Source: Eledone cirrhosa (taxonomy: Eukaryota). Taken from it: a DNA stretch of 64,000 nucleotides. The DNA is taken from assembly GCA_964016885.1 (NCBI GenBank), contig OZ024761.1:30752001-30816000 (forward strand). Reading direction: 5' to 3'. The notes under the pieces were generated by a model, which did not search any database, had not been told where the DNA came from, and saw only the letters and a program-made list of their open reading frames with translations. Below are positions 4,699-58,379 of the stretch, piece after piece (position 1 is the stretch's first letter; every line of letters begins with the position of its first letter). Both the position numbers and the translations under genes were made by a program.

Positions 4699-4758
<60 letters not shown>

Positions 4759-4798
4759 TCAAAATATTAACAAAAATAGAACTTCTTGTGATCAAGTA

Positions 4799-4865
4799 TA
4801 TTTTATTATACATATTTCAGAGGTACTGAGCTAATTTCAACAGTACGTCCTCATCAGATAAAATA
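4799..4865 (-). ncRNA. Type-I hammerhead ribozyme motif (family A)
   Basis: Minus strand: TATTTTAT-CTGATGA-GGACGTACTG[12 nt]CAGTACCTCT-GAAA-TATGTA-TA|ATAAAATA. Perfect 8-bp helix I, 10-bp helix II with one C-C mismatch, short near-palindromic helix III. Confidence 0.8.
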
Positions 4866-7149
4866 AGATGATGCATGACATACCCTGACATAGTAGATGG
4901 TTAAGATCCAGTCATGGTAGTGATTAAGATATTAAAAAAACTCAATATTTATATACCTTAAGATTGAGACGTGAAAAAAATTACATATAATACATATAAT
5001 ACAGAGGGTGCGTGTGAGAAAGCTTAACAATACATAACAGCAATTTACATAACTGTTAGAGATTCAAATAATTTAAATTATTGAAGAAAGAGGAAAGAAA
5101 AAAGAAAGACATAGAGAATTTATTGAAGTAAGAGGAAAGAAAAAAGAAAGACAGACAGAGAGAAAAGAAAGACAGAGATGAGGGGATAATATAGCTAGTA
5201 GGAGTATAGAGCGCAAAAGAGAATTGATCAAGGAAAGAGAGACAAAGAGGAATAATTTTTATAGTGTAAAACATAGGGAGGGATGAATTATATATATCTA
5301 TACAGAACTATACATTTGGGCATAGCTTTGCGAAAGAGTAAACTCGAATCTTTGAATTATTGAATTATCTAGAAGTATTCATCAATCTAAATCTTAAATA
5401 TAACTGGGTGTAATTATATGAAGGTTAATTTCCAGTCCTTAGTTAATTATTTATATATACTATCCAAACGTATCCGGTTGACCGTTAACTTTCAAATCAT
5501 TTAAGTTAGTACCGAGTAATGAATTAATCAAAGTGTATAATATTTCAGGCTATAAAAGTTTATAAATATCTGTATTAATATTAAAGTATACTATCATATT
5601 TAATTTATAAAATCATATTTTATGAAATCATACTTAAACTATTTGCAAACATGAGAAAGAAAACATAATATTTTCATCCTCACGAAGGTAATTCTTATTA
5701 AATTTTATTATATTATATTTAATTATTTATATTATATTGAAAATAATTCACATTATATAATTTATAAAATAATTACAGTTATAATTTTAAAAATTAAGAT
5801 TAACAATTAGGATGCGTTAAAGCATCTAAAAGCCTTATAATTAAACTTTAAAAAATTTATTATTAAATTAGATATATGCATTTGTCTAAATATAAACAAA
5901 GATTATATTGTCTAAAGATTAAGATGACACCTATCAGTTACATATAACATAATACAATACAATAAATAAGTTACTGATAATATTGTTAAAAATTAAGGTT
6001 TTAGATCAATTATTATAATAGGATCATGTAATACATATATACTATAAATATACAAGTCAAACTTCATGAATCATAAGGATAAGAACCAGATTCAAATTAA
6101 AAAAGTGAATTGTTTGCGATCTTAAAAATGCCCAATATCCAAGCTATATAGTTTAAAAATACAAGAAAAATTTTATTTTTTATTTATATAGTAGTATAAT
6201 GTGTCTGCAAACACGAGAAAGAGAAAACCTAAGGATTTCATTGACCCGAAGGTAACCCGAATTTAATTAAATTAAATTAAATAGTAATCGTTATATAATT
6301 TAGAAAATTTAGAAAATATTGAGAAAATATTTAACGATTATAACACTAGAAAGTCATTAAAGTATCTAAAGTACTTATAAATGTAACTAGAAGCATGTTA
6401 TATATCTGATCACTGTATGCTTGTAAGCATAAGATAAAGCCTTATTTAATAGGTTAGGTGTAATAGAAGAATAATAGCTTGCTATGTCCATTTGGATGAA
6501 TTTGTGATTTTTCTTATTATCTATATTTTTAAACCAGTTAATCACTTCATTAGTGTCCTTCCATCAGCTCAATTTAGACTTCAATTTCAGAGTAGGTAGA
6601 ATTCTATCAATAATATTCTTACTGATTACTCCAATATCCGATTTACGTACACATAAATATATATGTGTGTATATATTGATATAGATATTGATATACATAT
6701 ACCTATACATATATACATATATACATACGCACATACATACATACATACATACATACATACATACATACATACATACATACATACATACATACATACATAC
6801 ATACATCATATATATGTGTGTGTGTATGCATGCATGAGTACATAAATATGTATATAAGTCTATGTGTGTATATGTGTGAGCCTGTGGCTGTGTATGTGTA
6901 TGTGTGTGCGTGCGTGATAGACCGTGTCGTCTGTTTTCAAGCAATATTCATAACGTAAATAAATAAATGTGAGTCCCAAAGTTTATTGTCAAATATAAAC
7001 AAACATACATACACACATGCACATGTGCACATATGTATATGTATGTATATTGCCCTCAATGACATGTCCAAGTGCCGTTTCACATTGTCATGTTTCAATT
7101 TTCACATGGATTCTATGGCTGGATGTACATCCCAGTCTCCCAACACCAG

Positions 7150-10537: not shown

Positions 10538-10975
10538 TTGTTAATTAAAATGTTTATTGTATCTTAACTAGTTGACAGATTGTTGTGAAACTAAAGTAAT
10601 GACTTTCATTTTTAATGTGATTCAGTCATAGTGTTGTTTTGTACTTTTCAAGAATGTCTTACAAATGTAGTTTCATGTGGTGTGGGATCTTAAGATTTAA
10701 AACCTAAGAATTTTCGGGGGGGGGGGGGGGGGTTATAAAGAAGAATTCTGTGAGGTGGGATTTTCAACAGCTAGTTATGTCATCTTCTCAGTGGCATGTT
10801 GTCTTAATTCATTCTCCCTATTGTTTAACCTCATGCAATATCACAATGTCATTTAATATTCTCTGAGAAGTGATATTCTTATTTAATTCAATATTTTAAA
10901 ATTTATTCTATTAGTATTGTCTAGTTTTTGAAAGCAATCCAAAAGCATTAGATAATAATAATTATTATTATTGTT

Positions 10976-12510
10976 ACAACCATGTATAAAGAAACAAACA
11001 ATCAGCAAGGTTAGAATTAACAACGAATATAGTGAAGAGTTTAGCGTAAACGTTGGTGTTCATCAGGGCTCCGTTCTTAGCCCCCTACTATTTATTATTG
11101 CCCTTCAGGCTATAACAGTGGAGTTCAAGACCGGCTGCCCATGGGAACTCCTATACGCAGATGATCTAACGTTCATAGCTGAATCAATGGCCGAACTAGA
11201 GAAGAAATTCCAAACATGGAAGCATGGCCTAGAATCAAAAGGCCTTAAAATTAACCTGTCTAAGACTAAAGTTCTAGTTTGTAGGAAGGAAAATAGGGCA
11301 CCGGTCCCATCCGGGAAATGGCCATGCTCAGTGTGTAGTAAAGGAGTAGGTAGAAACTCCATTTTATGTCCCAAATGCAAAGTATGGGTGCATAAAAGAT
11401 GTAGTGGGATCACAGGTAAGCTAACTAAGAACATAGATTTTATATGTGGCCAGTGCTCTGGTGCAATAAGTAGCAGCAAGTGCCCACAGAATACTAGCTC
11501 ATTCCATTGCACAGATGGTTCTATAGAAATAGTGGACAGCTTCCGTTACCTGGGTGACAGAATCAGCAGTGGGGGAGGGTGCTCTGAAAGTACAGTAGCT
11601 AGAGTCAGAACTGGATGGAAAAAGTTCAGAGAGCTTATACCACTATTAGCCGCTAAAGGGTTCTCCCTAAAAATGAAAGGCAGGCTGTATGATGCCTGCA
11701 TACGAACAGCAATGTTACATGGCAGTGAGTTCTGGGCATTGTGTGCAGAGGATATACGCAGACTGGAGAGGAACGAAGCTTGCATGCTCCGCTGGATGTG
11801 TAATAGTAATATACGTGAACGGCAAAGCATAAACGAAGTAAGGGAAAAATTAGAAATAAGAGGGATCAGATGTTGTTTACTCGAGAGAAGACTACGTTGG
11901 TATGGTCACGTGATGCGCATGAAAGACGACAGCTGTATAAAAAAGTGCAGGGCAATAAAAATAGGCGGTAGCCACGGAGTAGGCAGACCCAGAAAAACCT
12001 GGGACGACTTGATAAATTCCGACCTCACACACTTACACCTCTCCAAGACAATGTCACTGGACCGAGATCTTTGGCGCTACACAGTAATAGAGAAGACCCG
12101 CCTTACCTAAGTACAAAGTGAAACCTACTACAGTCAGTAGGCACCTCTAACAAAATACTCCCCCCCCCCATCCCACCACCCCCACCCCATCCACACCACC
12201 CCTTTCAATGTAAAGTTATGTTAGTGCCACAAAATCCAGGCCGAAACAAATGAGATCGTGTAGGTGTCACGAAAAAAAAAAACACACACACAGTCCACAC
12301 TGTAATGTGACCGTGTAGGCAACACGGTAAAAACGTCCCAGTCCCACACTGTAAATGTGGTTGGTGTTAGGAAGGGCATCCAGCCGTAGAGAACCCGCCA
12401 GACAGTCCTATGCGAGCAAGACAACCACTCTTGCCTCAAGTGGGAAAACTCCCGTCCAAACCCATGCAAGCGTGGAATATGGACGTTAAACGATGATGAT
12501 GATGATGATG

Positions 12511-13592: not shown

Positions 13593-16160
13593 TCATCATC
13601 ATCATCATCATCATCATCACCGTTTTACGTCCGTTCTTCCACGCTAGCATGGGTTAGACGGGTTGTCCTGTTGTGGGCAGTGTCTGGTCGGCTGACCATG
13701 CCTTGCTCATACAGGAACTGATCTGGCTTGATTTCTACAGCTGGATGCCCTTCCTAACACCAACCTCATTTACAGTGAGTGCTGGGTGCTTTTTCGTGGC
13801 GCCTACACGTCCACTTTACAGTGTGGGCTGGGTGCTTTTTTGCCGTGGCACCTCCACGACCACCTTGCGGTGGGGGGGGGGGGGGGGGGCATATTGTTTA
13901 TATGCTTCAGCATGTACCCATGGGAGGTCGGGTACCCTGTATTACTGCGTGACGCCAGAAGTCACGGTCGTGTGTCATTGACTTTGAGAGGTGTAGTTGG
14001 GTAAGGTCGGCTTTTATCACCTCATCCCAAGTCATCTTGGGTCTCCCCACTCCGCGGTTTCCATCAACTTCTAGTGCTCTGCACCTTTTTATGCAGCTGT
14101 CATCCTTCATACGCATCACATGTCCATACCAGCGTAACCGCCTCTCCTGCACGCAGCATTTGATTCCTCTTATGCTCAGTCTCTCTCTCAATTCATTTAT
14201 GCTTTGTCGTTCACGTATATTACTGTTACACATCCATCGGAGCATGCAGGCTTCGTTTCTCTCTAATCTACGTAGGTCTTCCACCTTCAGCGCCCAGGTC
14301 TCACTACCATGCAACATCGCTGTTCGGATACACGCATCATACAGTCTGCCTTTCATTCTGAGGGAGAAGCCTTTTGCAGCTAGCAGTGGTAGTAGTTCCC
14401 TAAACTTCTTCCATCCCGTTCTTACCCTAGTTATTGTACTTTCTGAGCACCCACCTCCGTTGCTAATTCGGTCACCTAGGTAGCAGAAGCTGTCTACTGT
14501 TTCTACAGGGCCCTCCCAGAGATTGGTGGTACTTGTTTCCTGTGGCTGTTTGCTTGCTGTTTCAGCACAGCTGCTGCATGTGAATCCTACATTCTTAATT
14601 AAGCTTCCTGAGATCCCGCTACATCTCTTGTGTACCCATTGTTTGCATTTGGGGCAAAGAATGGAGTTCCTACCTACACCTTTCCTACATACTGAGCAAG
14701 GCCATTTCCCTGAGGGGATCTGGGTTCTGTTTTCTCGTCTACTTATAAGGACCTTAGTCTTTGTCATGTTGACTTTGAGGCCCTTTCTCTCTAGTCCCTG
14801 CTTCCAGGTTTGGAATTTATTCTCTAGTTCTACCATAGATTCAGCTATGAGTGCGAGGTCATCAGCATACAGGAGTTCCCATGGGCATCCGGTCTTAAAC
14901 TCCTCCGTTATTGCCTGCAGGACTATGATGAACAGGAGAGGGCTAAGAACAGAGCCCTGGTGGACCCCAACCTGTACGCTAAATTCCTCGCTATACTCAT
15001 TGCCAATCCTAACTTTGCTGACTGCTCCCCTATACATGGCTTGTACCGCTTTCACAAGCCATTCATCTACTCCTAGTTTTCTAAGAGCCCACCAGATTAC
15101 TGCACGTGGAACTCTGTCAAAGGCTTTCTCAAGGTCGACAAATGCCAAGTAGAGTGGCTTACTTTTAGCTAGGTACTTTTCCTGTAATTGCCTCACAAGG
15201 AAGAGCGCATCAGTGGTGCCTTTCCCTGGTACAAACCCAAATTGCATCTCGTCTATATTCACCCGGTCCCTAATCAGCTGTGCTATAACTCTTTCTGTTA
15301 CTTTCATGACCTGGTCCATCAACTTTATACCTCTATAGTTTCCTCTATCTAGTGCATCGCCTTTACCTTTGTAGCAGTTGACAATGATGCTACTGCACCA
15401 ATCTTTTGGTATGGCCCCCTCTAGTATTACCTGGTTAACGATACGTGTGGTTATAGTGTGACCTACAGACCCAGATGCCTTCAGCATCTCGGCAGCTATA
15501 CCCGATGGACCGGTTGCCTTCCCTATCTTCATATCTCTGATTGCCTTACTTACTATGCTGCCGCTGACTTGTACTGCTGGTCCCTCTATAGGGTCTACGT
15601 GGGGTAGGGTCTCTTCTTCCCATGCATTCTCCTCATTTAGTAATCTATCATAATGACTCTTCCATGCATCTTTCTTCTCAGCACTTGTGAGGGCAAGCTC
15701 ACCTTTATCATTCCGGATACACTTCTCTCCAATGACATCACAACTATCTCTGACACACTGCCTCGCAATCTTGAATACCTCCTGTTTCTGGTCCTCACGT
15801 TGTAAAACATGCTTGAATTTTCTATCCTCTGCTTCCCTCCTAGCTAAGTATACTTGTCGCCTAGCTTCCCTCTTGGTCTCTATGTAATGTACCCTGCTCC
15901 CCCCGTTCTTCCATTCTTTCCATGCCTGTCTCTTGGCCTTGACTGCTTCATCTACCTTATTGTTCCACCACCAAGTCACTCTCCTCCTGCTTGAGGTCTT
16001 ACTCCAGCCACAAACCTCATCCGTCGCCTCTAGTAAGTTATTTTTTAGGAACTCCCAGTTCTCTTCTACGTTAAATGTCTCTATCTGTTCTTCTTTACTG
16101 TCGTAGGCGTTGAGTAAAATATCTTTAAATCTGTTACTGGTTCAGGGGACTTTCAGCTTA
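13593..16160 (-). mobile_element. RTE-clade LINE, 5'-truncated, with uninterrupted 690-aa RT ORF (13907-15979)
   Basis: KGKGDALDRGNYRGIKL, QFGFVPGKGTTDA, AFVDLEKAFDRV, GVHQGSVLSP, LYADD, FCYLG, RLRWYGHV; (GAT)n tail. Confidence 0.96.
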
Positions 16161-20007: not shown

Positions 20008-20455
20008 GATATATTACCATATTTATTTCATTATACATATTTCAAGGACACCAAGTTAAATTATGGTGTGCTTTCATCAAATAAAATATAATATAGATCA
20101 GTTTTATAAATAAATATTGACATACCCTTAAAGAATGCGACCATTTCTTTTGGAAGCTCCTGGATAGCTATCCGGATAGCTATCCGGGAGCCTCCAACAG
20201 AAATGGTCGCATTCTTTAAGGGTATGTCAATATTTATTTATAAAACTGATCTATATTATATTTTATTTGATGAAAGCACACCATAATTTAACTTGGTGTC
20301 CTTGAAATATGTATAATGAAATAAATATGGTTTTATAAATATAGTTTCCATTTGTTAATATATCGTATTTTTACTCCAATAATTTGTTGAGTGCTTTATA
20401 TCAGTTATAAAAATATTTGCTTGTTGTATCCCAACAATTTAAATAGAACTTCTAC

Positions 20456-20528
<73 letters not shown>

Positions 20529-23500
20529 TATATACACACATAAGTATACACACATATATCTATACACACAAATGTAAATCATCGTCATCAACGTTTAACG
20601 TCCATTTTCCAAACTAGCATGGATTAGACAAGTTGTCCTGTTGTGAGACAAGTCAGATCAGACGACATTGTCTTGCTCATACATGTATATATATAATGGT
20701 TTCTGATTCAGGGAGATTCAGTGTGGCACAGAATGTGACAAGGCTAGCTCTTCAAATTGCTGGCACAACCCATTTTTTTTTTTTTTTTTTTGCCAGCTGA
20801 ATGGACTGGATCAACGTGAAATATAGTGCCTTGATCAAGGACACAACACACTGCTGGGAATCGAACTCATCAACTTACGATTGTGAGCCAAATAGCCTTA
20901 CCATAACGCCATGCACCTTCACACATACTACATATACTCAAATAACAAATTATATCCTGCCATCTTACAACAATATACATTTGTGTTTCTTTCTCTACAG
21001 TGTGTATCTAGGTATCTAGTACTCCAGGCTAGCTCTATAATGTGTATCTAGGTATCTAGTACTCCAGGCTAGCTCTATAATGTGTACCTGGTTATCTAGT
21101 ACCCCAGGCTAGCTCTACAATGTGTATCTAGGTATTTAGTACTCCAGGCTAGCTCTACAATGTGTATCTAGGTATCTAGTACTCCAGGCTAGCTCTACAA
21201 TGTGTATCTAGGTATCTAGTACTCCAGGCTAGCTCTACAATGTGTATCTAGGTATCTAGTACTCCAGGCTAGCTTTACAATGTGTACCTGGGTATTTAGT
21301 ACTCCAGGCTAGCTCTACAATGTGTACCTGGGTATCTAGTACTCCAGGCTAGCTCTACAATGTGTATCTAGGTATCTAGTACTCCAGGCTAGCTCTACAA
21401 TGTGTACCTGGGTATTTAGTACTCCAGGCTAGCTCTACAATGTGTACCTGGGTATCTAGTACTCCAGGCTAGCTCTACAATGTGTATCTAGGTATCTAGT
21501 ACTCCAGGCTAGCTCTACAATGTGTACCTGGGTATCTAGTACTCCAGGCTAGCTCTACAATGTGTACCTGGGTATCTAGTACTCCAGGCTAGCTCTACAA
21601 TGTGTATCTAGGTATCTAGTACTCCAGGCTAGCTCTACAATGTGTATCTAGGTATCTAGTACTCCAGGCTAGCTCTACAATGTGTACCTGGGTATCTAGT
21701 ACTCCAGGCTAGCTCTACAATGTGTACCTGGGTATCTAGTACTCCAGGCTAGCTCTACAATGTGTACTTGGGTATTTAGTACTCCAGGCTAGCTCTACAA
21801 TGTGTACCTGGGTATTTAGCACCCTAGGCTAGCTCTACAATGTGTACTTGGTTATTTAGCACCCTAGGCTAGCTCTACAATGTGTACTTGGTTATTTAGC
21901 ACCCTAAGCTAGCTCTACAATGTGTACTTGGTTATTTAGCACCCTAGGCTAGCTCTACAATGTGTACTTGGTTATTTAGCACCCTAAGCTAGCTCTACAA
22001 TGTGTACTTGGTTATTTAGCACCCTAGGCTAGCTCTACAATGTGTACCTGGGTATTTAGTCCCCTAGGCTAATTCTACAGTGTGCTCTGAGTATGTAGTA
22101 CCCTAGGCTATACATTTGCGTTTCTTTTCTTGTTTTTGTTCTTTTTGCAGACATCACCAATGAATGCCTTGAATACAGTAAAGATTTTGACTGCAAGTTC
22201 TACAGTTGTTTAGAGGAGAGGTTCCCTTGTGATTCAGCAAATACAGAACCTCTGCATAACGGTTATTGTGAACAAGCCTTCATCATGGCAAACCAATTGA
22301 ATGATATGGTTAGTGACATTTCTCAATTATCTAAACAAATGTGTATACACATACACATTATTATACACTTCTTCTTCTTCTTCATCTTCTTCTTCTTCAT
22401 TATCATTGTTTATATATATATATACATATATATATATCATCAACATCATCATCATCATCATCATTATCATTGTTTATATGTATATATATCATCAACATCA
22501 TCATCATCATTATCATTGTTTATATGTATATATATCATCAACATCAGCATCATCATCATCATCTAACATCTATCTTCCATGCTAGCACTGGTTAGACAGG
22601 TTTGTCCCATTTGAGACAAGTTCTGTTGGGTGATCAATGTCTCGCTTGCATAGGTCTGTTTGTGGCTGGTTTTCTATGGCTAGATGCCCTTCCTAACACC
22701 AACTACATTTCCAGTGTGTGGTGGGTGCTTTATTATCATCATTTTATGTCCGCTTTTTCCCTGCTTGCAAGGGTGGGACGGGAACTGATTCTGGCTTGAT
22801 TTCTACAGCTGGATGCCCTTCCTAACACCAACCTCATTTACAGTGAGTGCTGGGTGCTTTTTTGGCGTGGCACCTCCACGACCACTTTGCAGTGGAATGA
22901 TAGGGACCCCAGTCCCTATCATCTCATTTCTACAGCTGAGTAAACTGGAGCAATGTGAAATAAAGTGTCTTGCTCAAGGAAACAACACATCACCCGGTCT
23001 GAGAATTGAACTCACAACCTTTCGATTGCAAGGCCAGTGCTCTAACCACTAAGCCATGTGCCTCCAAGTATTTGGAGTAGATATACGATATTAATAAATG
23101 GAAACTATATTTATAAAACCATATTTATTTCATTATACATATTTCAGGGATACCAAATTAAATTATGGTATGCCTTCATCAGACAAAATACAATATATAA
23201 CAGTTTTACAAATAAGCTTTGACGTACCCTTTTAAAATGCAACCATTATTTTTGGAAGCCATCTGGATAGTGAGTTGTTTATATTATTTTAATAAGTCAT
23301 AGTGTTACTCTCCGTCTTTTTCTAATTGTCCTTAACACTATGACTTATTAAAATAATATAAACAACTCACTATCCAGATGGCTTCCAAAAATAATGGTTG
23401 CATTTTAAAAGGGTACGTCAAAGCTTATTTGTAAAACTGTTATATATTGTATTTTGTCTGATGAAGGCATACCATAATTTAATTTGGTATCCCTGAAATA

Positions 23501-26500
23501 TGTATAATGAAATAAATATGGTTTTATAAATATAGTTTCCATTTATTAATATATATTTTCTCTCTTGCACTCTACAACTTCATTCCTCTTACAGACTATC
23601 CATGCTTTTGCTGTTCATGTATATTAACACATCATACAACATACTTGTTTCATTTCTCTCCACAAAATAGTTATTGTTTTTGTGTGTGATGTATGGTGTG
23701 TGTGTGATGTATAGTGTGTGTGTGTGTGATGTATGGTGTGAGTGTGTGTGTGTGATGTATGGTGTGTGTGTGATGTATGGTGTGGGTGTGTGTGATGTAT
23801 GGTGTGGGTGTGTGGGTGATGTATGGTGTGTGTGTGATGTATGGTGTGGGTGTGTGTATCTGTGTGATGTATGGTGTAGGTGTCTGTGTGTGTGTGTGAT
23901 GTATGGTGTGTGTGTGATGTATGGTGTGTGTGTGATGTATGGTGTGGGTGTGTGTGTCTGTGTGATGTATGGTGTGTGTGTGTGTGAGTGTGTGATGTAT
24001 GGTATGGGTGTGTGTGTGATGTATGGTGTGAGTGTGTGTGTGTGTGATGCATGGTGTGTGTGTGATGTATGGTGTGTGTGTGTGATGTATGGTGTGTGTG
24101 TGTGATGTATGGTGTGTGTGTGTGTGATGTATGGTGTTTGTGTGATGTATGGTGTGAGTGTGTGTGTGTGATGTATGGTGTGTGTGTGATGTATGGTGTG
24201 TGTGTGTGTGATGTATGATGTGTGTGTGTGTGTTTGCATCATGTCTCATATACAGTTCTCATTCCTGACATTCCTTCATTATTCAATGAATTCTACATGC
24301 ACTTTTGGCTACACTTTCTGATGAGTTGTAGCACACCTGAGCACTGTCCACAATCTTCTTCTTCTTCTTCTTCTTCTTCTTCTTCTTCTTCTTCTTCTTC
24401 TTCTTCTTCTTCTTCTTCTTCTTCTTCTTCTTCTTCACCACTCACTTCTTGCTGAGAGGGTCATAGGGGGCGGAGTCCTCAAACACACCTCCCAGTGGGT
24501 CCTGTCAGAAGCAACCATTTCCAAATTTCCAACTGATCTGGCTGGATCCCCAAGTGTGACCAGCCAAGCTCATGGATGTTGTCCAACTATCTTGCTCGGG
24601 GTCTACCCCTGGGTCTCCTGTCAGTTGGTTTTGCCCATAAAATCTGTCCAGCGATTCTTCCAGTGACATTCTAACCACATGCCCATAGTATCAGAGCTGT
24701 GATCTCTCAATTCACAGAAGTAGGGCTCTACCTGGAGTGACTCTCTGATCTCCAAGTTATAACATTTACTATTTAACCCTTTAGCATTCACATTACTCAA
24801 TATATATTATTATATTTTTGTGGTAAAGGCTTTATTTTACATAATTATCGCACATGATATGGAATCCATGAGAGTTTGATATTATTTATTTTGAGAACAA
24901 TACCTTAACATCAGTATGAGTGGCCAGTTATGGCTGGTTTGAACAGAAAGAGGTGAAAGAATTCTGGCTGGATATGGCCGTTTTAAATGCTAAAGGATTA
25001 AAACGAAATTAGATACTGTCATAAAATCATAACTATTGGCAGTATCGGACGTCATGCTTTGGCGCATAGAGTTACGGCCCTTTCCATTCTGAGTTCAAAT
25101 CCCGCCGAGGTCAACTTTGCCTTTCATCCTTACAGGGTCGATAAAATAAATTACCAGTAATGTACTGGGTAATTGCTGCCCTTGTGCCTAAAGTAGAAAC
25201 AATTATATTTTTGCGGTAAAGGCTTTATTTTACATAATTATCTCACATAATATTGAATCTACGAGATTTTGATGTTATTTATTTTGAAAACAATGCCTTA
25301 ACATCAGTATGAGTGGCCAGTTACGGCAGGTTTGAATAGAAAGAGGTGAGAGAATTCTGGCTGAATATGGCCGGTTTAAATGCTAAAGGGTTAAATACAA
25401 TCTCTCTTTATTTTTACAGGGTCAGATCTGGATTAAAGAAATCATAAAGTGTTTCATTACTGGATTAGCTGCCATCTATAAATTAAATTCAGTGGATTGT
25501 AATTCAATCGATCCATATATCTTGTATTTACAACAGAACTGTTTCTTAGATAATGATTTCTGCGAAGTCGGATGGATTAACCGTTTTGAATTGTGGCATT
25601 TATTTAAACAACCACAGATAAAACCCCTAGGAGCTCATTACAAAGTGTAAGTAACCTGTATCAATGGTTGGTGGTGGTGGTGGTGGTGGTGGTGGTGGTT
25701 GGATGGTAGTGTTGGTGGTGGTGGTTGGTAGTGTTGGTGGTGGTGGTGGTGGTGGTGGCTGGTTGGTAGTGATGGTGTTGATGGTGGTGGTGTTGGTGGT
25801 GGTTGGTTGGTAGTGATGGTGGAGGTGGTGGTGGTGGTTGGTAGTGATGGTGTTGATGGTGGTGGTGTTGGTGGTGGTTGGTTGGTAGTGATGGTAGAGG
25901 TGGTGGTGTTGGTTGGTTGGTAGTGTTGGTGGTGGTGGTGGTGGTGGTGTTGGTGGTGGTTGGTTGGTAGTGATGGTGGAGGTGGTGGTTGGTAGTGATG
26001 ATGGAGGTGGTGGTTGGTTGGTAGTGTTGGTGGTGGTGGTGGTGATGGCAGTGGTGGTGGTGGTGATTGCTTGGTAGTGATGGTGGCGGTGGTGGTTGGT
26101 TGGTAGTGATGGTGGTGGTGGTGGTTGGTTGGTGGTGGTTGTGGTGGTGGTGGTGGTGGTGGTTGTTGGTTGGTAGTGATGGTGGTGGTGGTGGTAGTGG
26201 TGGTGGTTTTTGGTTGGTAATGGTAAATGGTGTTGCTGATAATGGTTGGTGGTGGGGGTGTTGGTGGTTGTTATTGTTGTTGGTGGTGGTGGTGGTGGTG
26301 GTGATGATGGTGGTGGTGGTGATGGTGTTGCTGATGGCGGTTGTTGTTGTAGTTGTTGTTGTTGATGGTGGTAATGGTGTTGGTGGTGGTGGAGGGGATG
26401 ATGCTTGTGTTTAGTTTAATAAGATACCAACATTTTTTTTTTTTTTGTTACAGATTATGGAATGCTATAGGTTCGATATCCACAAAATGTACAGCGTTGA

Positions 26501-31008: not shown

Positions 31009-50306
<19,298 letters not shown>

Positions 50307-55708: not shown

Positions 55709-58379
55709 TATTGTGTACTTCGCAAGAAGGGAAGCAGAGGAAAGAAAGTTCAAGCATGTTCTACAACGCGAGGACCAAAAGCGCGAGGTGTTCAAGATTG
55801 CTAGGCAATGTGTCAAGGAAAACTGTGATATTGTCGGGGAGAAGTGTGTACTTAATGATGATGGTGTACTTGCCATCACTGACGCTGATAAGAAGGTAGC
55901 TTGGAAGTGTTACTATGAAAGGCTACTAAATGAGGAGAATAAATGGGAGAAAGACAGTCTTCCCCACATCGACACAATAGAGGGACCAGCAGTGTTAGTC
56001 GAAGGTAGTATAATAAGTAAGGCAATCAAAGATATGAAGACGGGTAAGGCGGCTGGGCCTTCGGAAATAGTTGCTGAAATGATGAAAGCTTCTGGAACGG
56101 TGGGACACACCATGGTTACCCGGATAGAAAAACCAAGTCATACAGAATGGGGTTGTTCCGAAGGACTGGCGTAGCAGCATCCTCATTAACTGCTACAAGG
56201 GTAAAGGAGATGCCCTAGATAGGAGTAACTATAGAGGCATTAAATTAATCGACCAGGTCATGAAGGTCACAGAAAAAGTAATAGCGCAACTAATCAGAGA
56301 GAGAATTGATCTAGATGAAATGCAGTTCGGGTTTGTGTCAGGCAAAAGTACCACAGACGCTCTTTTCATTGTATGACAACTACAGGAAAAGTACCTAGCT
56401 AAAAGTAAACCCCTATACTTAGCTTTTGTCGACTTGGAGAAAGCCTTCGACAGAGTCCCCCGTTCCATTATCTGGTGGGCTCTTAGAAAACTAGATGTTG
56501 ATGAATGGCTTGTGAGAGCTATACAAGCCATGTATAAAGAAACAGTGAGCAAGGTTAGAATTAACAACGAATATAGTGAAGAGTTTAGCGTAAAAGTTGG
56601 TGTTCATCAGGGCTCCGTTCTTAGTCCCCTTCTATTTATTATCGCCCTTCAGGCTATAACAGTGGAGTTCAAGACCAGCTGCCCATGGGAACTCCTATAC
56701 GCAAATGATCTAATGCTCATAGCTGAATCAATGGCCGAACTAGAGAAGAAATTCCAAACATGGAAGCACGGCCTAGAATCAAAAGGCCTTAAAATTAACC
56801 TGTCTAAGACTAAAGTTCTAGTTTGTAGGAAGGAAAATAGGGCGCCGGTCCCAATCCGGGAAATGGCCATGCTTAGTGTGTAGGAAAGGAGTAAGTAGAA
56901 ACTCCATTTTATGTCCCAAATGCAAAGTATGGGTGCATAAAAGATGTAGTGGTAAGCTAACTAAGAACATAGATTTTATATGTGGCCAGTGCTCTGGTGC
57001 CATAAGTAGCAGCAAGTGCCCACAGAATACTAGCTCATTCCATTGCACAGATGGTTCTATAGAAATAGTGGACAGCTTCCGTTACCTGGGTGACAAAATC
57101 AGCAGTGGGGGAGGGTGCTCTGAAAGTACAGTAGCTAGAGTCAGAACGGAATGGAAAAAGTTCAGAGAGCTTATACCACTATTAGCCGCTAAAGGGTTCT
57201 CCCTAAAAATGAAAGGCAGGCTGTATGATGCCTGCATACGAACAGCAATGTTGCATGGCAGTGGGACCTGGGCATTGTGTGCAGAGGATATACGCAGACT
57301 GGAGAGGAACGAAGCTTGCATGCTCTGCTGGATGTGTAATAGTAATATACGTGAACGGCAAAGCATAAGCGAGCTAAGGGAAAAATTAGAAATAAGAGGG
57401 ATCAGATGTTGTTTACTCGAGAGAAGACTATGTTGGTATGGTCACGTGATGCGCATGAAAGACGACAGCTGTATAAAAAAGTGCAGGGCAATAAAAATAG
57501 ACGGTAGCCACGGAGTAGGCAGACCCAGAAAAACCTGGGACGACTTGATAAATTCCGACCTCACACACTTACACCTCTCCAAGACAATGTCACTGGACCG
57601 AGATCTTTGGCGGCACTCAGTAATAGAGAAGACCCGCCTTACCTAAGTACAAAGTGAAACCTACTACAGTCAGTAGGCACCTCTAACAAAATACACCCCC
57701 CGTCCCACTACCCCCACCTCACCCACACCACCCCTTTCAATGTAAAGTTATGTTGGTACCACAACATCCAGCCCAAAACAAATGAGGTCGTGTAGGTGTC
57801 ACGACAAAAAAACACACAGTCCACGCTGTAATGTGGCCGTGTAGGTAACACGGTAAAAACCTCCCAGTTCCACACTGTAAATGTGGTTGGTGTTAGGAAG
57901 GGCATCCAGCCGTAGAAACCCGCCATACAGTCCTATGCGAGCAAGACAACCAATCTTGCCTCAAGTGGGAAAACACCCGTCCAAACCCATGCAAGCGTGG
58001 AATATGGACGTTAAACGATGATGACGATGATGATGATATATATATATATATATGTCCACTACCCCCACCCCATCCACACCACCCCTCTCGATGTAAAGTT
58101 ATGTTGGTACCACAACATCCAGTCCTAAATAAATGAGGTTGTGTAGGTGTCACGACAAAAAACACACAGTCCACGCTGTAATGTGGGCGTGTAGGTAACA
58201 CGGTAAAAATCTCCCAGTTCACACTGTAAACGTGGTTGGTGTTAGGAAGGGCATCCAACCGTAGAAAACCCGCCAGACAGTCCTATACGAGCAAGACAAC
58301 CAATCTTGCCTCAAGTGGGAAAATTCCCATCCAAACCCATGCAAGCGTGGAAGATGGACGTTAAACGATGATGATGATG
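55709..58379 (+). mobile_element. RTE-clade LINE, 5'-truncated and frameshifted (YANDL in place of YADD), with tandemly duplicated 3' UTR
   Basis: ORF pieces 55713-56174, 56434-56883 and 56876-57646 are near-identical to the 10976 copy; two (GAT)n tails. Confidence 0.95.

What the first reader, a model, noticed from the sequence alone, without database searches (positions are those of the whole stretch)
4799..4865. Covariation in family-A hammerhead stems, including a conserved C-C mismatch
Helix II is GGACGTACTG/CAGTACCTCT here, AGGCATACCA/TGGTATCCCT at 23465, AAGCACACCA/TGGTGTCCTT at 20274 and AGGCATACCA/TGGTATCCTT at 41717. The sequences differ but all form a 10-position stem with a C-C mismatch at position 4. 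Helix I alternates between Watson-Crick and G-U pairs (TATTTTAT/ATAAAATA vs TATTTTGT/ATGAAATA). This is direct evidence for selection on RNA structure. The fixed C-C could be a tertiary-contact site (inference).
Basis: partly seen in the sequence, partly recalled or inferred. Interest (0 to 1): 0.75.

Follow-up and report, generated by a model that had tools for sequence, protein, structure and literature searches.

The report
Retrotransposon hammerheads keep one unpaired cytosine
These are hammerhead-type RNA motifs, predicted to cut themselves, at the ends of a known kind of jumping gene with about 100,000 copies in this animal genome; their stems change in matched pairs between lineages while one cytosine stays unpaired, likely as a docking point, and cutting has not been tested.

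Summary
The four stems are as described. They are type I hammerheads about 45-60 nt from the 3' end of Hydra-like Penelope retroelements (7 copies in the window, about 100,000 of this group in the genome). Four copies alone prove little. Across 24 lineages, helix II pairs 2, 3 and 6 covary beyond a tree-aware null (E 0.0006-0.009); helix I does not reach significance. 'Fixed C-C' needs correcting. C·C holds in 92-93% of two large groups, but a group of about 24,000 copies is mostly C·U and a 2,797-copy lineage is mostly C·A. What never changes is an unpaired 5' cytosine (10.4): 0 changes against a mean of 3.8 in neighbouring columns, and no amplified lineage was seen with a C-G pair. Sister lineages here and 25 published Hydra hammerheads are paired at this position (24) or have loop there (1). 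No RNA partner covaries, so a tertiary contact is unproven; contact with the element's own protein is my first guess. Covariation in Penelope hammerheads is published; I did not find this cytosine in print. The scan noted this family before in this genome (e1-8670794).

The parts
4799..4865 (-). Type I hammerhead, lineage B; intact core, predicted AUA site
4858..4865 (-). Helix I, 5' strand (pairs with 4799-4806)
4851..4857 (-). Core C3-A9 (CUGAUGA)
4841..4850 (-). Helix II 5' arm; invariant unpaired C10.4 at 4847
4819..4828 (-). Helix II 3' arm; position 11.4 at 4822 (C here; U or A in other lineages)
4807..4818 (-). G12-A14, 8-nt self-complementary helix III (4808-4815) and A17 (4807); predicted cut between 4807 and 4806
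4757..6660 (-). 5'-truncated, internally deleted Penelope-like copy ending in (TA)n: about 1.6 kb of 3' untranslated region and a reverse transcriptase fragment at 6414-6656
20010..20337 (.). Head-to-head inverted insertion with hammerheads at 20024-20088 (-) and 20259-20323 (+); both carry C3U; C10.4 at 20277, 11.4 at 20300
23088..23552 (.). Head-to-head inverted insertion with intact hammerheads at 23126-23190 (-) and 23450-23514 (+); C10.4 at 23468, 11.4 at 23491; 96-97% identical to the 3' end of the ORF-bearing element in L086
41438..41930 (.). Head-to-head inverted insertion with hammerheads at about 41486-41546 (-, 3-nt insertion in helix I) and 41702-41766 (+, helix III lesion, followed by a short tandem duplication and a tail); C10.4 at 41720, 11.4 at 41743

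Best explanation
The motif is a type I hammerhead sequence near the 3' end of Hydra-like Penelope retroelements, whose helix II changes in matched pairs between lineages while cytosine 10.4 stays unpaired, likely as a base-specific docking point that the RNA would need to reach its cutting fold, most likely contacted by the element's own reverse transcriptase-endonuclease protein. Shown: the sequence, its link to the ORF in sense, the covariation, the invariant 5' C and the variable unpaired 3' base (C, U, A). Inferred: selection acted on RNA of active master elements; the short palindromic helix III would make cutting depend on a dimer; reverse transcription starts 43-66 nt past the site on RNA that is uncut (or rejoined) there, so every truncated insertion carries the whole motif. 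Guessed: the partner of C10.4 is the protein, which would make cutting conditional on ribonucleoprotein assembly.
For: Covariation, 24 lineages each seen at 2 or more loci, pattern-only extraction, tree-aware null: pair 2 E=0.009, pair 3 E=0.003, pair 6 E=0.0006 (similar). Tool count on 22 lineage copies: 95% of cells paired, 63 cells changed on both sides, 5-15 when slid. G·U outnumbers A·C 36 to 4 among proposed pairs (hand count), which points to RNA of this strand. Pair 4 is paired in 4 of 305 copies against 281-294 of 305 for pairs 2, 3, 5, 6. C10.4: 0 changes on the tree against a mean of 3.8 for the other 10 helix II columns (Poisson about 0.02 by hand), although it lies in CpG in 10 of 24 lineages and C-to-T is its commonest lesion in single copies (2,258 U·Y copies, first 100 spread over many lineages). 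All mismatches but G·G cost about the same in the energy model, so a mere weak spot would accept U or A at 10.4. The 3' base is free to be C, U or A. C-G copies: 82 against 24,537 C·C, scattered over lineages. The C persists across elements whose RT is 47-93% identical apart from one near-identical pair. Helix I, loop 2 and flanks share no base in reach. A Penelope-type hammerhead that cleaves only with its own protein is reported (PMC11167929, parts 1-2 of 4 read).
Against: No binding or cleavage data. In the anole element, 5' truncation to +20, which removes much of stem II, still allowed insertion in vitro (PMC11167929; a different clade). Invariance hides covariation, so a contact to the helix I backbone would look the same. 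Sister lineages with 17,674 pattern hits (control 927) are paired at position 4 and spread well, so the feature is not needed by all such elements. Invariance rests on 24 lineages and a rough DNA tree. The lack of a C-G lineage is weak alone: only two changes at 11.4 were seen and C-to-G is the rare class (82 of 690). Helix I covariation is not significant (best E 0.24) and pair 5 is borderline (E 0.04-0.16).
Confidence: 0.4

Rival explanations
1. Tertiary RNA contact: the free C10.4 docks on the backbone or minor groove of helix I, standing in for the loop 1-loop 2 contact of canonical hammerheads.
For: Position 4 is where canonical 4-bp helix II ends and loop 2 begins (PMC4209133 parts 1-2). 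Contacts between internal or terminal loops of stems I and II are established (PMC3088659 passages). A backbone contact needs no covarying partner.
Against: No non-proposed pair is significant (best E 0.45). Helix I length (4-8 bp) and sequence differ between lineages; the A at 1.6 that looked shared is U or G in other lineages. The helix I of the 4799 copy has no G for a Watson-Crick partner.
Confidence: 0.3
2. Brake: the mismatch only weakens helix II so that the 3' hammerhead stays uncut in the RNA used as template.
For: Insertions carry both sides of the cut site. The mismatch costs 6-7 kcal/mol against C-G. The 3' base varies among C, U and A. AUA was the slowest of four triplets tested in a viroid hammerhead (PMC1636495 abstract). 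An earlier scan note suggested this.
Against: It does not explain why 10.4 is always C when U·C and A·C are equally weak and C-to-T is the commonest lesion. The weak helix III (self-duplex -2.2 kcal/mol for AUAUGUAU) would already limit monomer cutting.
Confidence: 0.15
3. Frozen accident: pair 4 is free of constraint and C10.4 has not changed by chance in a clade with one ancestor.
For: The lineages may be one clade (EN tree split 100/99 against only two outgroup rows). C is also common at 10.4, paired with G, in 15 of 25 published Hydra rows (count by eye). Lineage numbers are modest.
Against: 0 changes against a mean of 3.8, in a CpG context in 10 of 24 lineages. Neighbouring pairs are 92-96% paired, yet this 6-7 kcal/mol gap was not seen closed in any lineage.
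Confidence: 0.1
4. Mutational or DNA-level origin: template switching in hairpins creates matched changes without selection on RNA.
For: The elements often form inverted insertions. Quasi-palindrome correction is a known process (recalled, no call).
Against: Such correction would erase the mismatch, but C-G copies are 0.3%. G·U far exceeds A·C on the hammerhead strand. The core is kept.
Confidence: 0.05

Closest known systems
Hammerheads of Hydra-clade Penelope-like elements (Craig et al. 2021, PMC8557442; passages, section 11, supplement parts 1-2 and search passages read)
   Same: Type I hammerhead in sense near the 3' end; small palindromic helix III; often U·U or G·U at 10.1; (TA)n targets; inverted 5'-truncated copies; ORF with YRDD, CxCX5C linker, C-terminal GIY-YIG, CxxC and CxH.
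   Different: None of the 25 distinct Hydra rows of File S2 has a mismatch at pair 4 (by eye). Helix II is 8-16 bp here. Helix III is an 8-nt AU...AU palindrome. The untranslated stretch between ORF and hammerhead is about 1-1.9 kb, so elements exceed the 'generally under 3 kb' of that paper (L086). Hydra-1_Obim has a different hammerhead.
Minimal and atypical hammerheads of metazoan Penelope-like elements (Cervera and De la Pena 2014, PMC4209133; parts 1-2 of 4 read)
   Same: [quoted passage not shown]
   Different: No extra base between 9 and 10.1 and no fixed G10.1-C11.1 here; an invariant unpaired C at 10.4 is not mentioned in the text read (figures and supplements not seen). Copy number about ten times the 9,000 given for Xenopus.
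Protein-assisted hammerhead of Poseidon from Anolis carolinensis (Frangieh et al. 2024, PMC11167929; parts 1-2 of 4 read)
   Same: Reverse transcription starts inside the RNA downstream of the hammerhead at two sites; uncut RNA is the template; two 3' ends are also seen here.
   Different: Different clade; no fixed mismatch reported in the parts read; the two 3' ends lie about 85-90 nt apart here against 30-40.
Non-LTR retrozymes (Cervera and De la Pena 2020, PMC7229834; passages read)
   Same: Type I hammerheads in very high copy number (126,247 in axolotl).
   Different: Those are 150-450 bp tandem repeats, mostly with loop-loop contacts; these are dispersed, truncated or inverted ends of ORF-bearing elements.

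Membership tests
Type I hammerhead ribozyme | Core CUGANGA, GAA, A15.1-U16.1, H17 | tested here: met
   Intact at 4799, 23126, 23450, 41486 and 41702; C3U at 20024 and 20259. 290 of 312 structured copies have a perfect core (most loci were fetched by exact-core patterns).
Type I hammerhead ribozyme | Three helices, helix I open | tested here: met
   helix III is only 2-3 bp in the monomer
Type I hammerhead ribozyme | Self-cleavage after H17 | not testable with these tools
   no RNA holder listed; contigs cannot show ends
Rfam hammerhead families | Match to a curated covariance model | tested here: not met
   no hammerhead family among 119 matches at E up to 1 over the window
Canonical (extended) type I hammerhead | 6-bp helix I and 4-bp helix II with conserved interacting loops | tested here: not met
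   helix II 8-16 bp, loop 2 variable, no covarying tertiary pair
Penelope-like element, Hydra clade | Single ORF, RT then C-terminal GIY-YIG, hammerhead downstream in sense | tested here: met
   L086, L088, L091, L235, L465 and others. Pfam gave no hit for L086, L091 or the two L088 plus-strand frames; motifs read by eye; Atlas leads to RVT_1/GIY-YIG clusters at 0.92-0.94.
Penelope-like element, Hydra clade | CxCX5C linker; CxxC and CxH in the endonuclease; no CCHH cysteines | tested here: met
   read by eye in L086, L088, L091 against section 11
Penelope-like element, Hydra clade | RWK and DKT motifs | tested here: inconclusive
   RWR and DKT are in the related ORF L087:6720-7676, which is not tied to a hammerhead; the linked ORFs read were truncated before them
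Penelope-like element, Hydra clade | Insertion into (TA)n | tested here: met
   (TA)5 within 150 nt of the cut site in 129 of 186 A/B, 39 of 45 E, 16 of 31 D, 12 of 24 F copies
Penelope-like element, Hydra clade | Placement inside the clade in an RT tree with published members | not tested
   published proteins were compared by eye only
Non-LTR retrozyme | Non-coding head-to-tail repeats of 150-450 bp | tested here: not met
   window copies are single or head-to-head; lineages are tied to ORFs

The most novel reading that the evidence does not exclude
The invariant unpaired C10.4 is the handle through which a Penelope-like protein switches on its own hammerhead: a protein-dependent ribozyme whose control site is mapped by natural variation over about 100,000 copies, with C·C, C·U, C·A and fully paired sister lineages as ready-made controls.
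Probability: 0.3. Interest if true: 0.7.

Novelty: new variant of a known kind. Interest (0 to 1): 0.42.

Why it matters
What hammerheads do for Penelope-like elements is stated as unclear in the papers read (PMC8557442, PMC4209133), and they cut poorly alone. A single base that stays unpaired and unchanged over lineages with half-diverged proteins points to one position to mutate, and natural variants supply the controls. The setting itself (hammerheads in these elements, with covarying stems) is known, so the gain is one testable detail plus a very high copy density.

Tried and rejected
Rfam: no hammerhead match. Single-strand folding gives helix II in all four copies but significant z only for one (-2.7; others -0.6 to -1.4); not used. 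First structure scans required pairing, so statistics were redone on pattern-only copies. Target-type copies in loci L106-L165, fetched for being variant at position 4, were dropped before counts. Helix III covariation (E 0.006) is discounted because the patterns partly fixed its form. A shared A at helix I position 1.6 as partner: rejected, U or G in other lineages. An apparent U·C lineage proved to be CpG decay of a lineage with C (93 of first 100). The ORF upstream of the F hammerhead in L441 was left out of the tree as probably another element. No RNA holder listed; four contig sets laid show no ends, and the 2 contigs each from organisms B and C are too few to use. Other animal genomes could not be searched, so the range outside this genome is unknown. 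Lunse et al. 2017 on small Penelope hammerheads is not held and may describe such variants. Literature searches listed no paper on this cytosine or mismatch; most hits were seen as listings only, figures were not visible, the Craig supplement was cut, and bioRxiv supplements are closed. The 2026 retrozyme preprint was read in part 1 of 5 only and PMC6765202 and PMC6155905 as passages; none changed the reading.

Full report
Observation. The four stems are present as written. The 4799-4865 motif reads on the minus strand: helix I, CUGAUGA, a 10-position helix II with C at 4847 facing C at 4822, GAA, an 8-nt self-complementary helix III and an AUA triplet with a predicted cut between 4807 and 4806. 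The window has 7 copies; six are the twin arms of three head-to-head insertions. Two of the four cited copies are damaged (C3U at 20259, helix III at 41702). Rfam finds no hammerhead. On the four copies, 6 of 9 helix II pairs change on both sides, but four of these come from one diverged copy, so the set alone is weak evidence.

What it belongs to. In longer loci the hammerhead lies in sense about 1-1.9 kb downstream of an ORF and 43-66 nt upstream of (TA)n. The window's 23088-23552 insertion is 96-97% identical to the 3' end of the ORF-bearing element in L086, and 4757-6660 is a truncated, deleted copy with an RT fragment. The protein has YRDD, a CxCX5C linker, a C-terminal GIY-YIG, CxxC and CxH, which fits the Hydra clade of Penelope-like elements (PMC8557442 section 11) and resembles its published members by eye. 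Pfam missed these frames, and no tree with published members was made. The host was not determined.

Copy number. Exact patterns gave 26,275 (control 0), 48,207 (control 127) and 30,337 (control 39) hits for three disjoint sets of 8-nt helix III, about 105,000 in all. A sister set with 9-nt helix III adds 17,674 (control 927). The total of about 120,000 is close to the 126,247 reported for axolotl (PMC7229834 passage).

Covariation. I extracted copies by pattern only, with no pairing filter, from the window and 370 own-genome loci, dropping copies fetched for being variant at position 4. Of 305 copies, pairs 2, 3, 5 and 6 are paired in 289, 294, 281 and 294, and pair 4 in 4. Copies fell into 83 clusters; the 24 seen at two or more loci were tested with a G-test against a null that moves substitutions along the tree (my script, modelled on R-scape, not R-scape itself). 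Pair 2 E=0.009, pair 3 E=0.003, pair 6 E=0.0006, pair 5 E=0.16, best helix I pair E=0.24. An earlier run with 22, 42 and 69 representatives agreed, as did the pair-count tool on 22 natural copies. G·U exceeds A·C 36 to 4 (hand count), so the constraint is on RNA of the hammerhead strand. Such covariation in Penelope hammerheads is already reported (PMC4209133).

Position 4. C·C is in 24,537 of 26,275 and 44,199 of 48,207. C-G is in 82, scattered over lineages; 1,048 lack the 5' C, and the first 100 listed are mostly C-to-T. But C·C is not fixed. Of 24,123 hits with another helix III, about 9 in 10 of the first 100 are a lineage with C·U (by eye; 45 of 45 stored copies). A short-loop lineage of 2,797 copies has A at 11.4 in 65, C in 34, U in 1 and G in 0 of the first 100, with the 5' C in 93 (by eye); this lineage was not in the tree test. 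The constant is an unpaired 5' C: 0 changes against a mean of 3.8 for the other ten helix II columns. It holds across elements with RT identities down to 47%. Sister lineages with 9-nt helix III have A-U at pair 4 in 18 of 18 and 11 of 11 stored copies and fall on the other side of a 100/99 branch in an EN tree with only two such rows. None of 25 published Hydra hammerheads has the mismatch; 15 have C there, paired with G (by eye).

Mechanism. Because insertions carry both sides of the cut site, the template was uncut or rejoined there (inferred), as in the anole element, whose hammerhead cleaved only with its protein (PMC11167929). The palindromic helix III would favour dimers (PMC4209133; self-duplex -2 to -10 kcal/mol). 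Head-to-head genomic twins would pair with each other and are unlikely to cut (inferred). All mismatches but G·G are about equally weak in the energy model, so a simple brake explains the free 3' base but not the fixed C. A fixed, unpaired base facing a variable one suggests a base-specific contact. No RNA partner is visible: no non-proposed pair is significant and helix I shares no unpaired base. I put the element's protein first (0.4), a helix I backbone contact second (0.3), then brake (0.15), chance (0.1) and DNA-level mutation (0.05). Against the protein reading, stem II was largely dispensable for insertion in the anole element, and sister lineages do without the feature.

Novelty and score. 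The system is known. The unpaired C10.4 was not found in nine literature searches, with the limits that Lunse et al. 2017 was not held and figures were not visible. The scan had noted the same family in this genome, with a brake reading. No expression or cleavage evidence was obtained, and no relatives were found in metagenomes. Verdict: a real, lineage-specific variant of a known kind; interest 0.42.

Noticed in passing
G000, genome-wide: About 120,000 exact-core type I hammerhead motifs, roughly one per 25 kb, similar in number to the axolotl count in a genome recalled to be about ten times larger.
   Followed up: partly
window 41838-41930 and 20337-20450; Insertions end at two distances from the cut site, about 43-66 nt and 123-140 nt, a tail of about 85-90 nt, longer than the 30-40 bp described for these elements; likely two reverse transcription start sites.
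   Followed up: partly
window 4875-4886 (-), 23408-23418, 20218-20228, 41663-41672: A GGGTAYGTCA motif lies 20-50 nt upstream of the hammerhead in both A and B lineages although the rest of the flank differs; possibly a promoter or protein site.
   Followed up: no
one search list, for example G000:C1:13273305-13273360: One sister lineage with 9-nt helix III has C·C at pair 2 rather than pair 4; another has U·U near pair 7.
   Followed up: no
L253, L383 and relatives: Some lineages widen the gap: A·A at pair 3 (3 of 4 copies) or A·C at pair 5 (5 of 6 copies) beside C·C.
   Followed up: no
PMC8557442 File S2 and L019, L022: Long-helix Hydra hammerheads from coral, sea anemone and acorn worm, and a local lineage, share G·U at pair 3; a recurring irregularity in the inner helix II.
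   Followed up: no
L020:669, L105:5344, L122:888, L171:1823: At least four unrelated minimal hammerhead families with short helix II and 4-6-nt palindromic helix III occur in the same loci.
   Followed up: no
window 10962-12110 (+), 13907-16141 (-), 56377-57646 (+): Reverse transcriptase frames followed by a PHD-like finger, two of them inverted to each other; another retroelement family.
   Followed up: no
window 44385-45047 (-): DUF7047 plus RVT_3-like frame, probably a further retroelement fragment.
   Followed up: no
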